Origin: an uncultured cyanobacterium
Lineage (GTDB): Bacteria > Cyanobacteriota > Cyanobacteriia > Cyanobacteriales > Cyanobacteriaceae
Assembly: GCA_963710605.1 (NCBI GenBank)
Contig: CAVQBA010000006.1
Location: 256,001-320,000 of the forward strand
Direction: 5' to 3'
DNA: 64,000 nt
A program made the position numbers. How positions within the stretch are numbered: the stretch's first letter is position 1; every line of letters starts with the position of its first letter. Of this stretch, positions 24,001-30,000 are shown piece by piece.

Positions 24001-27000
24001 TTCTACGATAAATTGAGTTAATCCATCAGAGGTAATTGAATCTGTAACAACAGTTGAGTGAGGATGCTCGGTTAAAACGATCGAACTGATTAAAGCAATC
24101 AGACGGTTACGATTTAATTCTTTACCCTCGGCATCAACCGCCGCTGAGCGATCGACATCAGTATCAAAAATAATACCAAAATCAGCTTGATTATCAACAA
24201 CAGCTTGAGAAATTGAAGCCATCGCCTCTTTGTTTTCAGGGTTAGGAATATGGTTAGGAAAATTACCATCAGGCTCTAAAAACTGACTTCCTGTAGTATC
24301 TGCCCCTAAGGGTTTTAATACTTTATCAGCGTAAAATCCACCTGCACCATTACCAGCATCTACGATTATTTTTAACCCTTGTAAAGGTTGCTCAAAACTG
24401 TCTGGATGATTGACAGCCTTTCTAATTTGTTGAACGAAACCATCGGCATAAACCGAAATAAAGTCATGGTTAGTTACTTTACCTTTGGTATCACTATCAA
24501 TAAATTCGTTTTGCTCAGCGAGGGTTAAAATATCAGTAATATTTTGTTTTCCTAAACCACCATTAGGGGTAAAAAATTTTAAACCATTACGATTAAAAGG
24601 TAGGTGACTAGCTGTTAACATAATCGCTCCATCGCAATTAAACCCATCGGTGATAGTACTCATAAACATTGCCGGAGTAGAGGCGATCGCAAAATTTAAT
24701 ACATTTGCCCCCAGACTATTGATACCTTCGCTTAAGGCTTTGAGTAATGTCTCTCCTGATAAACGACTATCTCTACCTACAGAAACAGTGAGTTGATTAG
24801 TTGGTTTTTGGCTTTGTTGACTTAACCATTGCGTAAAGGCTTTACCTAAAATGGTAACAACTTCAGGAGTTAGGTTAACCTTTTCGCCTTTTACTCCTTC
24901 AATTGCTACACCTCTAATATCAGAACCATTTTGTAGTTTTTGCCAATTAGTTGTTGTGATCATGATCAAAAATTTTTGAAATTGATAATTACTGATGAAG
25001 AGGCGACTAATCCTCTTTACAATTAACGATAACAATTCCCTTTCAAAAACAAGAACAAAAAGTAGCTTTACTTAATATTCTTAGTTTTTAAGAAAAAAAA
25101 GAGCAAAAATTACCCTGAATTGAGGATAGTCTTAAATACTTAATAGTTGATCGTGATTTTATTTTTCACTAAATACTAAAATATAATCTGATTGTGAAGT
25201 ATCTCAATACTAAATTGAGTAAGAAATAGCAATTATTAATTATTAATTATTAATTATTAATTACTTTTTACCAAGTAAAATTAGTTTCGTAAACTTTCTT
25301 GCAGATAAAGTAAGAAAAGACTAAAAATAAAATCATTGGAATTGCGATCGCAATTAAGTTTGACAGACCAAAAGTCTCTAAAATATTTTTTAAAGGTAAA
25401 ACGAATTGGTGAGTGATAAAAAATGGAAATGCTAAAATCCCAATAGTTGCTGTTGCTTGAAAGATAAATTTAAGCCACTGAGGAAATTCATTGTATTGAG
25501 ATAAAATACGATCGTTAATTTTTAAAAGTACTAAAATCGCTCCAATATTAAATATCCAAGTCCAAGAAGATACTGGACGTGGCCACGTCCACCAAGTATC
25601 AAATGAATCAGCATGAGAAGAAGTGACTAGTGCGAAGGAAATCAAAGCAAGACCAATCCAAATGTAGTCAGTATTAAGCGGATTTATTTCTTTATTTATT
25701 TTCTTCCTCATGGCAATACCAATACTCATACCAACTAATACGCCAGGAGTGAGGCTAAAGTAACCAAATTTGGCAACCATCAAAATTTTAAATAATTCAA
25801 CTAAGCCATAGGCTGTGTAATTTCCCCAACCTTGTAAGAAAAAATAATATAAAAAGTGAATTAGTACACCCAAACACAAACTGACAACAACAGGATTTTT
25901 AACTTTCTCTAGTAACTTAAACCACAATCCGAGAGTAGCAGTAATTAAGAAGAAATAGCTAATAACAGAATAGAAAGAGTTAGTAAAATTAGTAAATGAA
26001 TCAAATCGATTAGTAGCTAATTGCAGTCCAATCACTCTAATTGATAGAGCGATAATACCTACAAATAAAAGTTTTAACGTTGTTTTAATAAGTTTGTAAA
26101 AACGTTGACGATCGTTTTTATATATTTCAAACAAAGAATAACCAGCCGAAACACCATACACAATACTAAAACCTTGAGTACCTGCCGCAAATATATTCGC
26201 CATCACAGGTGCTAATATTTGACCAATAACTGAAGGTAGCTTATCAAAAAGACCAGCTGACCAATGTCCAGATATAACGCAAAAAACTAAAAATCCACGA
26301 ATTATATTGATATTAAAACCTGTTTTAGTATAAAGATTAGAAATAGTGTGAGATATTTTAACAGGTTCTTTTTCGGTATTTTGAGAGGCTTGAATTCTTT
26401 GAGCTAATTCTCTAACTGACAAACCTTGTAACATTCCCCTGACAATCTCACGAGGAATACCTAACTGCTCCATTTTGACCATTACTGAGATCGCTGTTAA
26501 GGAGTCTCCACCAATGGAAAAGAAGTTACTCTCAGGTTCAATGTTATCTACTCCTAGAACTTCTTGCCAAACTTTAATAATATGTTGTTCTTGTTCGTGC
26601 TGAGTATTTGTCGTAGTGGTTGCTGTTGTCGTTTTTGAGCCTTCAATTCTCTGGGCTAACTCCCTGACTGACAAGCCTTGCAACATTCCCCTAACAATAT
26701 CACGAGAGATACCTAACTGCTCCATTTTGACCATTACTGAGATCGCTGTTAAGGAGTCTCCACCGATTGAAAAGAAGTTGCTATCTGGTTCAATATTTTC
26801 TACTCCTAATATTTCTTGCCAAACCTCGATGATATGTCTTTCTTGTTCACTGAGATGATTACCACCATTGGTTGAGAAGACATCAACATCAGGGGCTGTA
26901 CTATCAATTTTTGGTTCAGCTTCAAATAGTTTAGTTAATTCTTTTCTTTTGATTTTACCTGTGTTAGTAGTGGGAAATTCATCCAACTCAATTAGTTTAA

Positions 27001-30000
27001 TGGCATCAAAACTACGAATATTATTTGCCGCCATTGCTTCTGTGGCGGCTTTTTTGACTGATTCTAATGGTAAATTGTATTCTTTTAAGGTAGCAATTAG
27101 GATACCATCACCTCTCATAACATCTGGTATTCTGGTAACTGCAACACCTGATTTGATTTGAAGTGTTTCTCTGATGTGTTTTTCGATCGTTTCTGGTGAT
27201 ATTTTGATTCCACCACAGTTAATTAAATCATCCGCTCTACCTTGATAGTAAATATAACCATTCTCAATCTTACCTAAATCGTTAGTAGTTAACCATCCTT
27301 GTTGATCAATATTTTCAATTAATTCACCGTTAACTAACATTTTGCGAGCAACGTTATCTCCTTTAATCATTATTTTTTGTTCAGGAGATAATTTGATTTG
27401 CATATTACCGTAACCTTTACCTACAGATTCTAAATCGATACCTGAAGTTTGATCAATTTCTAAAAATGTACTTCGAGATGCTTCAGTTAAACCGTAGTGT
27501 TGAAGTATTTTAGCATTAGGAAAAAGAGCTTTGATTTGTTCTTTTTCTTTTTGACTCATGTATTGACTACCAATTTCAATCCACTTTACTTGATGAGTTT
27601 CTTGACCAAAAATTTGTTGACATTGAAATAACAATCGCCATAAACTAGGAACAGCAGAGATAGCATTAATCGATCCTTCTAACAGCATATCTCTGATTTC
27701 TAGCGGATTAAATCCATTTTCAGGTAAATAAAATTCTCCTCCTGCGGTGGCAACGGCTCGGCATCTACCAAAACCGAATGAATAATTAACTGGAATACCC
27801 ACATATTCTCTAATAGTTGAATCGACTTTCATTGTGTGGTTAAGACGCTCAACAACATCGTTTAAGTTTTGATGAGATAACAATACCCCTTTAGGATTTC
27901 CTGTTGTACCTGAAGTAAAAGCTATTTGGGCGAGCGATTCTGTTTGTTGAGGAATAAAACCTATTTTACACCAACCAAACTCTAATTTGGGGGTAATTAT
28001 TTTTTTTGCCCCTGTTAAATCTATTTTATAGTAATCTTGTTCACTCGTTAAAAATACGGCTATTTTTTTTTCTTGAAAACAGTTAAAAATTGTCCTGATA
28101 AAATCGATCGAATTAACTGAGACAACCCCAACTATTTCTCTAGTATTTGCACCAAAAATATGTTGTTTCGTTTGTGGGGAGATAATATCGTTTTCCATCG
28201 TTTATCCTCAGTATTAAAATACAAAATAATTTATTCACAAAGCAAGGAATGAGAAATATAGGTTATTAAAACAGTTAATTTATTGAATTTAAATCAAAAC
28301 TGCTGTTAAGTTTAGCATTTAAATCTTTATATCTTTTTACGTCAATAAGGTCAAGACAATTATCTTCAATCATTGATATTAAAATGAGAAGTTTAGCTAA
28401 AAATATTATCCTATCATGATTTAGCTTGTGTCTTTTACCTTACTCGATCGAGCGTATCATAACGTTTTTACTCAATATTCAAATACAAAATTGGTTCGTT
28501 TAAAAATAAGATATTTTAATTACTAGTTGATGATTACTATTTAAATACAAATCTAGGGAATTAATTTTAGTATGGGTTGAGTTTAACTAAATGATTGAAA
28601 AGATAGCCAACCGCACAACCCATCACCATATATTTAAACTCTATTATCTGCACATACAGCCGAATTAATATTTTTTTTTAGGCTGTCATGCCAACTAATA
28701 TTTTTCTAGGCCGACAAAAGTGCTTCTGCCGTGAGCGGCTAAGAGATTATCTAACAACATAATATCTCCTTTTTGCCAAGGGAATTTGATCTCTTCTTCT
28801 AGATAAATTTGTCTAATTTGGTCTAATACAGATGGCTCTATTTCGCTACCATCACCATAATAAGAATTACGAGGAAGTTCGTTTGGTTCAAACAAAGATA
28901 ACAATTTTTGTTGAATATCAGGCTTCATATTAGACAGATGAAATAGATGTGCTTGATTAAACCATACTTTTTCTTTAGTAACAGGATGAGTTAAGACTGC
29001 TTGACAAGTTTGATAAGTTCTGAGATGATTTTCGTTTACCCATTCTTGTTTAATTCCGATTTTGTCACATATTTTTTTCAATTCTGATTTACTTTCAGTT
29101 TGAAACACTTGTTGCCACGGTAAATCTAAGCCATTACCGTAGTTACGAATATACATAATTTTTTTGTCTTCAAACTTAGAGCGAATGCTAGGATCAATTT
29201 TTTGGTAAACTGCTTTACTATCAGCGATCGGTGTATAGCCAAGTTCTAATGCGGGTTGAACACAATAAAAACCGATTTTCATTGGCCAGCTAAGACTATA
29301 GGACATTTCGTTATGCAAAGGAATAGACTGCTGGGCTGGATATTCTGTTGAGGTATAAACCTTATTACCAACTTTAGAGCGAGGGGTAGAAGCATAAGAA
29401 TATGTTAATAACTTACCAAAAGTCTTGGCGATTAAGTTTTCAAAATCTTCGACACCATTAACTTGAAAGCCTCTAAGTAAAACACCTCCATGTTCTAATA
29501 TTTTTTCTTGAACAAATTGTTTATTTTTAACAACCCAATCAACAACATTGATGTCTTTTTCTGAAGCTTTCATCAGTAAAGGAAGCATTGAGTTTTCATG
29601 CAAAGGAGAACATTCAACTAATTCTTGTCCTAATTCTTGTTTGCCAAAACTTGAGGTGAGATTCAATCTAGAAAGTAAATTTTTCATAAAATTAATTGAT
29701 ATAAGTTAGTAAATTTCAACACATTTTGCTGATTGTATCTAGGTTGATACTTAAATCCTTCGAGCAACTTTTAAGTATCTGCGTACTTAATTTAGCCAAT
29801 ACTCGTTTAAGCAAAAATCAATATTTTGCCTTGATTATACTTTGGGCTACAATAATCAGCTTCAAATTCTTTAATCATTTTAGCTATTTAATCATCCTTT
29901 TTCCTGAATTGTTTATGTAGTATATTTATTTTAGATTGTTGTTTAAATTATTAGTTATTTACTAATAAAATACAGAATAGACAACATTTATTAAATAAAT

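What a model noticed while it worked through the whole genome (the two positions that open the first line are those of the whole stretch)
25268..28198. One-chain adenylation - carrier - AT3 membrane acyltransferase
A 976-aa protein joins an adenylation (AMP-binding) domain, two phosphopantetheine carrier domains and a ~10-helix membrane domain of the acyltransferase-3 (AT3/OafA) family. It would activate its own acyl donor and hand it across the membrane without acyl-CoA, a single-chain counterpart of the DltA-DltC-DltB logic built on an AT3 rather than an MBOAT fold. The A-T-AT3 order is fixed in a small family.
Evidence so far: Pfam AMP-binding 2e-24, PP-binding 7e-21 with two GGDSL motifs; Acyl_transf_3 over 3-324 of 326 positions, weak (5e-5; call 161), matched in 7 of 17 family members, best 2e-7, while all 17 have the A and carrier domains; the AT3 R-x10-H motif (R634, H645; motif recalled) is conserved; AlphaFold model pLDDT 78 with A-PCP fold hits (McyG A-PCP, E 5e-17) and about ten long helices after residue 620; 17 proteins at E<=1e-70, this one included, the others 860-890 aa.
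(Added by a program. Inside this text positions count along the whole contig: contig position 256,001 is position 1 of the stretch shown here. "Call 12" and the like, gene names such as g00115 and contig names such as C1 are that model's own, and its searches are not shown. The text may have been shortened before it was handed on; [...] marks where a part breaks off. The agent that wrote the report below was given it as the finding of a first reader that could run no searches.)

Follow-up and report, generated by a model that had tools for sequence, protein, structure and literature searches.

The report
Self-loading membrane acyltransferase for exopolysaccharide
One cyanobacterial protein joins an acid-activating enzyme, two carrier arms and a membrane acyltransferase, and probably decorates the cell's secreted sugar polymer from a tethered acyl group rather than from acyl-CoA, the donor thought to serve this enzyme class.

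Summary
The fusion is real: an intact 976-aa ORF, adenylation (A) - carrier - carrier - 10-helix membrane domain. Corrections: the family is large (346 clusters at 50% identity), the order is not fixed, and the second carrier is a recent duplication. The fixed unit is carrier + membrane domain: 124 of 124 relatives with room upstream have a carrier, fed by different loaders (this A type, amino-acid-type A, C-A modules), and the carrier's sequence follows the membrane domain, not the loader. The same A also feeds a second AT3 clade, thioesterases and hexapeptide acyltransferases. 19 of 31 long loci lie among polysaccharide genes; the host has matching genes elsewhere. Best reading: carrier-fed acylation of a Wzy-type exopolysaccharide (0.7); donor perhaps a small dicarboxylic acid (0.4), possibly hydroxylated by the upstream TauD-family enzyme. 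Donor, acceptor and membrane side are unshown. Reviews name acyl-CoA, not carriers, as the AT3 donor; nine searches found no study. The scan noted this family before on other DNA.

The parts
25268..28198 (-). A-T-T-TmAT(AT3-like) fusion gene, 976 aa
   Evidence: colinear with relatives over its whole length apart from the extra carrier
26918..28138 (-). Adenylation domain (res ~21-427), shortened at the N-terminus, core motifs intact (TSGTTGNPKG, YGLTE, TNDLG, GRADD, K415); pocket S140 F141 G144 S181 I207 I209/G210 H234 R242 S243
   Evidence: Pfam PF00501 (12); PDB sequence hits MatB, beta-aminoacyl-ACP synthetase, oxalate-CoA ligase; pocket columns
26639..26848 (-). Carrier domain T1 (res ~451-520), Ser482
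   Evidence: PF00550 (12); family carrier profile 105 bits
26384..26596 (-). Carrier domain T2 (res ~535-605), Ser566; recent duplicate of T1
25271..26338 (-). 10-helix membrane acyltransferase domain of TmAT fold (res ~621-976): R634-x10-H645, F677-x4-G682, G823, A923-x3-F927, H930
   Evidence: model, VIA Z 20.8 to HGSNAT, hhalign to 18 ordinary AT3s 89-95% probability, column counts
28678..29687 (-). TauD-family Fe/2-oxoglutarate dioxygenase, 500 bp upstream, same strand; called ORF ends at 28695 but the conserved last strand runs on in another frame (probably an assembly indel). Possible tailoring partner
   Evidence: PF02668 1.7e-37 (12)
30016..31224 (-). GT4 glycosyltransferase (EpsE/WcaL-like), same strand; belongs to the protein cluster found in the most loci around this A domain

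Best explanation
The protein is a carrier-fed membrane acyltransferase that decorates a Wzy-dependent exopolysaccharide. (1) A phosphopantetheinyl transferase arms S482/S566 (inferred; the genome has one). (2) The A domain activates a small carboxylic acid with ATP and loads it on the carrier (inferred from intact motifs; the acid is unknown, best guess a small dicarboxylic acid, about 0.4). (3) The carrier docks on the cytoplasmic face of the TmAT domain and its pantetheine arm enters the tunnel that takes the pantetheine of acyl-CoA in other TmAT enzymes, R634 near the phosphate, H645 near the thioester (fold and motifs shown; docking inferred). (4) The acyl group passes to a sugar of the lipid-linked repeat unit or nascent polymer, most likely on the outer side (about 0.6). 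In this genome the upstream dioxygenase may hydroxylate the tethered acyl group, the second carrier giving it time to act (about 0.3).
For: Fold. Motifs in 150 relatives: R634 95%, H645 99%, F677 95%, G682 100%, G823 100%, F927 F64/Y32, against the definitions in PMC12423673. Carrier always present: 124 of 124 with more than 90 residues upstream; 130 of 150 overall. Carrier follows the membrane domain: profile score median 86 bits with this A, 88 with other loaders, 21.5 for carriers on the same A before the other AT3 clade, 30-47 for the host's ordinary carriers; pairwise identity rho T~TM 0.29, T~A 0.03. Carrier Ser invariant in 39 of 39. C-A-T-TM forms in 12 of 43 scanned proteins can only deliver thioesters. 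PPTase gene within 10 kb in 6 of 39 loci. Polysaccharide context: 19 of 31 loci >=12 kb have two or more EPS gene families; nearest relative in G004 sits after Wzx-GT61-Wzy-like genes; the host has matches to those genes (Wzx 47-69%, GT61 60%, Wzy-like 48%, sulfotransferase 58%, WecG 52%, three GT2 50-65%) elsewhere.
Against: No biochemical data. The window's own AT3 score is below the Pfam cut-off and 22 of 39 members do not match at E<=0.1. 11 of 31 long loci show none of the EPS families tested; the four nearest relatives (L001-L004) lie among housekeeping genes. In the window only one GT4 is near. The EPS query clusters came from the same loci, and many EPS loci are kin. No Wza, Wzc or hexapeptide match was found in the host with these queries. 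The loss of CoA-binding residues is only partial: RxxR has no fixed column, but the window keeps R699-x-x-K702 and 54 of 131 fused proteins match a loose pattern, against 15 of 18 controls.
Confidence: 0.7

Rival explanations
1. Same carrier-fed chemistry, but the acceptor is not the exopolysaccharide: a lipid, LPS/O-antigen, a glycoprotein glycan or an exported small molecule.
For: 11 of 31 long loci lack the tested EPS families; several lie by TonB receptors or housekeeping genes; exosortase genes occur in 8 loci; the other AT3 clade on the same loader is seldom in EPS clusters (2 of 19 long loci with two or more families). Unchecked scan notes place actinobacterial A-T-AT3 proteins by iron importers.
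Against: Repeated position inside Wzx/Wzy/WecG clusters in several phyla; cyanobacteria scatter EPS genes, and the host has the matching set.
Confidence: 0.18
2. The A domain is an acyl-CoA ligase that supplies acyl-CoA locally to an ordinary AT3; the carrier is vestigial or structural.
For: Closest solved A domains by sequence are CoA ligases (MatB 7e-20, oxalate-CoA ligase); reviews hold acyl-CoA to be the AT3 donor; TM1 Arg and basic residues at the start of TM3 remain.
Against: Carrier Ser invariant, carriers multiplied up to four times, carrier co-varies with the membrane domain (78, 100), NRPS-type loaders on the same membrane domain (50), neighbouring PPTases.
Confidence: 0.07
3. The membrane domain does not acylate a defined acceptor but releases or polymerises the tethered acid (membrane-bound poly-acid or poly-amino-acid synthetase logic, recalled).
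For: A-T-membrane order resembles such synthetases (recalled); thioesterase can replace the membrane domain on the same loader.
Against: Fold is TmAT with its donor-site motifs; no condensation-like domains; EPS context.
Confidence: 0.05

Closest known systems
AT3 (PF01757) glycan O-acyltransferases of the TmAT superfamily: OafA/OafB, OatA, IcaC; HGSNAT and GWT1 as solved members
   Same: 10-helix fold with broken TM9, R-x10-H, FxxxxG, TM6 Gly, TM9 aromatic; glycan-locus context.
   Different: N-terminal A and carrier domains; D of DxxR is N; no fixed RxxR; no SGNH domain. PMC9558356 section 14 gives acyl-CoA 'rather than' ACP as donor and names only SGNH and racemase fusions; PMC12423673 has no occurrence of carrier, ACP, adenylation or NRPS.
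DltABCD (teichoic acid D-alanylation) and AlmEFG (lipid A glycylation); both recalled, DltA also in NCBIfam hits
   Same: ATP activation, carrier thioester, membrane-associated transferase, envelope polymer as target.
   Different: Separate proteins; DltB is MBOAT, AlmG is LpxL-like (recalled); donors are amino acids, whereas this A lacks the Asp235 of amino-acid-activating domains. DltA score 83 bits against a cut-off of 476.
Aas, acyl-ACP synthetase / 2-acyl-GPE acyltransferase (recalled; NCBIfam PRK08633 hit on the A domain only)
   Same: Loader and acyltransferase in one membrane-bound chain, carrier-bound donor.
   Different: PlsC-type transferase, lipid acceptor, separate ACP.
TIGR03098 acyl-CoA ligase, exosortase A system-associated
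   Same: Related A domain (8e-34); EPS/exosortase loci.
   Different: 117 bits against a cut-off of 592; stand-alone; I found no functional study.
NRPS termination modules (A-T-TE, C-A-T-TE)
   Same: Module order; the same loader occurs with TE in 3 loci.
   Different: Off-loading domain is a membrane TmAT.

Membership tests
TmAT superfamily | 10-TMH core fold | tested here: met
   Model pLDDT 95.4 with ten long helices, TM9 broken; Z 20.8/18.3 HGSNAT, 15.9 GWT1, next 7.4 (49). Foldseek alone gave only E 0.04-0.08 for the same entries.
TmAT superfamily | TMH1 Arg, TMH2 FxxxxG, TMH6 Gly, TMH9 Tyr (or Phe) | tested here: met
   R634 95%, F677 95%, G682 100%, G823 100%, F927 (F64/Y32) in up to 150 relatives; definitions from PMC12423673 section 6 (33). 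Helix numbers read from the model, not from a printed structural alignment.
TmAT superfamily | TMH1 Asp of DxxR | tested here: not met
   N631; N 72%, D 2% (73). The paper calls it dispensable in OacB and absent in GWT1 (33).
AT3 (PF01757) | R-x10-H in TMH1 | tested here: met
   R634/H645; H 99% (73); motif from PMC9833829 passages.
AT3 (PF01757) | RxxR at the cytoplasmic end of TMH3 | tested here: inconclusive
   No conserved column (best Arg 50%); strict RxxR 35 of 131 fused vs 8 of 18 controls, loose 54 of 131 vs 15 of 18; window has R699-x-x-K702 (73). Register uncertain.
AT3 (PF01757) | Pfam gathering score 31 bits | tested here: not met
   23.4 bits here. Relatives of the same clade pass: 38.4, 38.2, 31.1 (21); 45.2, 42.2, 41.8, 37.6, 36.6, 31.9 (50). 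So a divergent subfamily whose nearest Pfam family is AT3.
AT3 (PF01757) | Acyl-CoA as donor; extracytoplasmic glycan acceptor | not testable with these tools
   Needs assay; comparative evidence points to a carrier donor.
Dlt system | MBOAT membrane component and D-Ala-specific DltA | tested here: not met
   Fold is TmAT; DltA models far below cut-off; Ser at the Asp235 position (79).
ANL adenylation enzyme | Core motifs A3, A5, A7, A8, A10 Lys | tested here: met
   All present and invariant or nearly so in 26 of 26 (10); N-terminal part shortened in the whole family (Pfam match starts near profile position 155).
NRPS amino-acid A domain | Asp at GrsA position 235 (numbering recalled) | tested here: not met
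   S140 in 127 of 127 of this A type; Asp in 29 of 32 other loaders on the same membrane domain (79). TIGR01733 97 bits against 317 (6).
Phosphopantetheine carrier domain | GxDS Ser at the start of helix 2, PF00550 above cut-off | tested here: met

The most novel reading that the evidence does not exclude
Carrier + TmAT is an unrecognised off-loading unit for NRPS-like assembly lines that puts amino-acyl, peptidyl or tailored acyl groups on exported glycans; here a mini-line (dioxygenase + A + two carriers) hydroxylates a tethered dicarboxylic acid, for example succinyl to malyl, before the membrane domain transfers it to a sulfated cyanobacterial exopolysaccharide.
Probability: 0.25. Interest if true: 0.85.

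Novelty: new variant of a known kind. Interest (0 to 1): 0.68.

Why it matters
It would be a TmAT/AT3 enzyme fed by a protein-bound thioester, against the stated view that acyl-CoA rather than a carrier is the donor, and it gives a one-gene system in which to test this. Because loaders are interchangeable, it offers a route for polysaccharide substituents that have no CoA pool (amino acids, hydroxy acids, short peptides), predicts such substituents from gene content in marine Gammaproteobacteria, Chlorobi, Myxococcota and cyanobacteria, and suggests loader swaps for engineering polysaccharides.

Tried and rejected
Sequence search of PDB chains with the membrane profile: 0 hits at E<=10; NCBIfam has no family for it. 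hhalign of the two AT3 clades on the same loader: no similarity (probability 0.4), though each matches ordinary AT3s, so they are treated as separate fusions. Clean loss of RxxR as proof of a carrier donor: rejected as only partial. Assembly artefact for the second carrier: rejected, copies differ at 40 of 231 bases, mostly silently. Promoter/terminator scan no better than shuffles (34 vs 30.4), so an operon GT4-TauD-fusion is not shown. Sequencing runs: none was listed. Rfam: nothing in the window. Atlas: one row at 0.90, PP-binding 80% / AT3 66%, a lead only. The careful tree did not finish; the quick tree is used. P0147 looked like a PKS loader, but the hit is weak (4.7e-5, below cut-off) and the protein may be a fragment. 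Donor from closest solved structure: not decidable, top hits span malonate, beta-amino acid, oxalate and fatty-acid enzymes within three orders of E-value. My ORF caller missed the core gene in L013, L061, L068; four more proteins ended before an output domain; these rows are outside the architecture counts.
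Full report
Observation. The window holds an intact ORF at 25268-28198 on the minus strand, 976 aa, at ordinary G+C for the window. 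The host is a cyanobacterium by its genes and nearest relatives. Pfam gives AMP-binding 2.1e-24, two PP-binding stretches 6.7e-21 and a weak Acyl_transf_3 over profile positions 3-324. The gene is colinear with 25 relatives of 860-920 aa except for one extra carrier. The two carriers are 191/231 identical in DNA, with 18 silent and 11 replacement codon differences in 73 codons: a real, recent duplication, not a family trait.

The membrane domain. Folded alone on a 39-row alignment, residues 618-976 gave pLDDT 95.4, pTM 0.93 and ten long helices with a break in the ninth. Against 48,161 solved chains only three reached Z>=8: HGSNAT 8jkv (Z 20.8, rmsd 4.5, 312 aligned), HGSNAT 8tu9 (18.3) and GWT1 8xik (15.9); the next row is 7.4. 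PMC12423673 (abstract, section 6 part 1, passages) places these proteins with AT3 in the TmAT superfamily and lists its conserved positions. In 150 relatives the TM1 Arg (R634) is 95%, the His eleven residues on (H645) 99%, FxxxxG 95/100%, TM6 Gly 100%, and the TM9 Tyr position F64/Y32. The Asp of DxxR is Asn. The TM3 RxxR (PMC9833829, passages, where R74 contacts the CoA 3'-phosphate in simulation) has no fixed column: loose pattern in 54 of 131 fused proteins against 15 of 18 ordinary AT3 controls (28 loci; 19 yielded a protein, one mis-anchored row dropped), and the window keeps R699-x-x-K702. This fits a donor without the ADP part, but only weakly. A profile comparison with those controls gives 89-95% probability. 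The window scores 23.4 bits on PF01757, under the cut-off of 31; 17 of 39 members match at E<=0.1 and nine same-clade proteins pass the cut-off. Verdict: TmAT fold shown, divergent AT3-like subfamily.

The family is large and modular. A profile of the membrane domain finds 346 clusters at 50% identity (E<=1e-3; 206 at 1e-30). Of the 150 listed, 130 have a carrier directly before it; all 124 with more than 90 residues upstream do; the 20 without have no room for one. Of seven such short proteins looked up, two share a cluster with longer members, one of 885 aa, and most lie on short contigs; one lies on a 46-kb contig and could stand alone. Loaders vary: 66 have this A type, 34 full-length proteins have another. 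Among 43 proteins that I picked from the 150 as lacking this A type, 12 are full C-A-T-TM modules. Of 32 other A domains, 29 have the Asp of amino-acid-activating domains, three with a code that I recall as glycine-specific. Conversely, a genome scan found 314 stretches with this A type (79 loci fetched); of 78 such proteins 40 end in this membrane domain, 29 in a second AT3 clade not alignable to the first, 3 in a thioesterase, 2 in a hexapeptide acyltransferase, and 4 were too short to class. On a quick tree of 77 A domains the five labels need 11 changes where 4 is the minimum; starred branches force at least 3 for this clade.

Which domain does the carrier serve? A carrier profile from this clade scores a median 86 bits on carriers behind this A type and 88 on carriers behind other loaders (both from the 150 representatives), but 21.5 on carriers that sit behind the same A type and before the second AT3 clade, about 18 before hexapeptide domains, 28-55 before thioesterases and 30-47 on the host's ordinary carriers. 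Among 86 proteins, carrier identity stays at 0.36-0.37 whether or not the loader is shared, while A identity falls from 0.48 to 0.21; rho is 0.29 for carrier against membrane domain and 0.03 against A (pairs are not independent, and adjacent domains also travel together by recombination). The carrier Ser is invariant in 39 of 39. A PPTase gene lies within 10 kb in 6 of 39 loci, four of them Chlorobiaceae; the host has one elsewhere. This is the best evidence that the membrane domain takes its acyl group from the carrier.

Acceptor. Recurrent neighbours are GT4, three GT2 groups, WecG, hexapeptide acyltransferases, epimerases, Wzy, Wzx, Wzc/Wza-like proteins and exosortase. Of 31 same-clade loci of at least 12 kb, 19 have two or more of nine such families, 20 at least one, 11 none; the queries came from the loci themselves and many are kin. 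The nearest relatives (L001-L004) lie among housekeeping genes. Among 60 related genomes a strong match was found only in G004, where the gene follows Wzx, GT61 and a Wzy-like gene and precedes a sulfotransferase. The host has matches to these (47-69%, 60%, 48%, 58%), the first three together on another contig, and to WecG and the three GT2 groups (50-65%); no Wza, Wzc or hexapeptide match with these queries. In the window the EpsE-like GT4 lies two genes upstream on the same strand. A sulfated Wzy-type polysaccharide is the likeliest acceptor; this is inference from context.

Donor. The pocket is nearly invariant: all 127 A domains of this type among 159 share S140, F141, S181, H234, R242 whatever the output domain (GrsA numbering recalled; position 301 is I209 or G210 depending on the alignment). 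No Asp235, so not a canonical amino acid. R242 lies five residues after the Leu of YGLTE; in oxalyl-CoA synthetase AAE3 His319, five after Met314, binds oxalate and is said to set specificity (PMC8905533, passages; the motif match itself is recalled). Top PDB sequence hits include malonyl- and oxalyl-CoA ligases. A small dicarboxylic acid is my guess at about 0.4.

The dioxygenase. A TauD-family gene lies 500 bp upstream. It is the host's only match, was not found with this query in 19 same-family genomes, and is about 55% identical to cyanobacterial proteins, some of them parts of long ORFs of NRPS size; I recall this group as hydroxylating carrier-bound Asp (SyrP type). Such a gene is adjacent in 4 of 5 multi-carrier members (window, L049, L070, L074; not L056) and in 0 of 35 single-carrier members (some contigs are short); two further loci with it could not be classed. 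The window's copy is only 33-36% identical to the others, suggesting separate recruitment. An unchecked scan note (e1-4170750) describes it beside what reads as a single-carrier fusion, so the link is not strict, and it may serve the host's NRPS on C1 instead. Its conserved last strand is in another frame; two more window genes and 3 of 21 tested hits elsewhere are also split, so an assembly indel is likely.

Mechanism, shown and inferred. Shown: domain order, intact motifs, TmAT fold, obligate carrier, swappable loaders, glycan-locus bias. Inferred: arming, loading, insertion of the pantetheine arm in the CoA tunnel, transfer to a sugar. Not shown: donor, acceptor, side of the membrane (soluble thioesterase and hexapeptide forms show that the same acyl group can be delivered in the cytoplasm), docking, expression.

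Known and new. PMC9558356 (passages and section 14) states that acyl-CoA rather than ACP is the physiological AT3 donor and names SGNH and racemase fusions only. Nine searches (listings only, apart from the four papers named) showed no study of an A-carrier-AT3 fusion; the library lacks most subscription journals and I did not open supplements, where the TmAT paper's protein tables or Pfam architecture lists could mention it. Dlt, Alm and Aas share the logic with other folds (recalled). I file it as a new variant of a known kind: TmAT acyltransferase with a carrier-bound donor. The scan noted the family before on other DNA; those notes are unchecked and my reading was set before I saw them. 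Interest 0.68.

Noticed in passing
window 28678-28712; 34241 (ArsA-like gene end); 17409-17700 (oxidoreductase start): Three genes in the window continue in another frame, and 3 of 21 tested hits elsewhere in the genome are split; the assembly probably carries indel errors.
   Followed up: partly
L041:12541-13905: A second gene with only carrier + membrane domain follows the full fusion directly, as if one loader feeds two transferases.
   Followed up: no
L030:1157-6498: Two fusions in tandem with closely related A domains but the two different AT3 clades.
   Followed up: no
L015:10013-13338: In one Methylophaga the loader ends in a thioesterase, in an EPS cluster like those of its kin, followed by a 362-aa gene with no Pfam or NCBIfam match: a candidate replacement transferase.
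   Followed up: partly
L069:9980-12079, L079:9974-12064: A-T-hexapeptide (left-handed beta-helix) acyltransferase fusions with the same A pocket.
   Followed up: partly
L093:7991-17520 (G000 C1): Host NRPS in two ORFs (A-T-C.. / C-A-T-C-A-T-TE-like) with a short repeat at the break and no tailoring genes beside it.
   Followed up: no
window 18992-23081: HAMP / adenylate-cyclase-like / globin-like fusion (850 aa) followed by an MscS-like protein with a cyclic-nucleotide-binding-like tail: a possible gas-sensing cAMP module (domains partly read by eye).
   Followed up: no
P0058, P0085 and 18 more: A recurrent A-domain code beginning DPRH on the same carrier-membrane unit, with or without a C domain; substrate unknown.
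   Followed up: no
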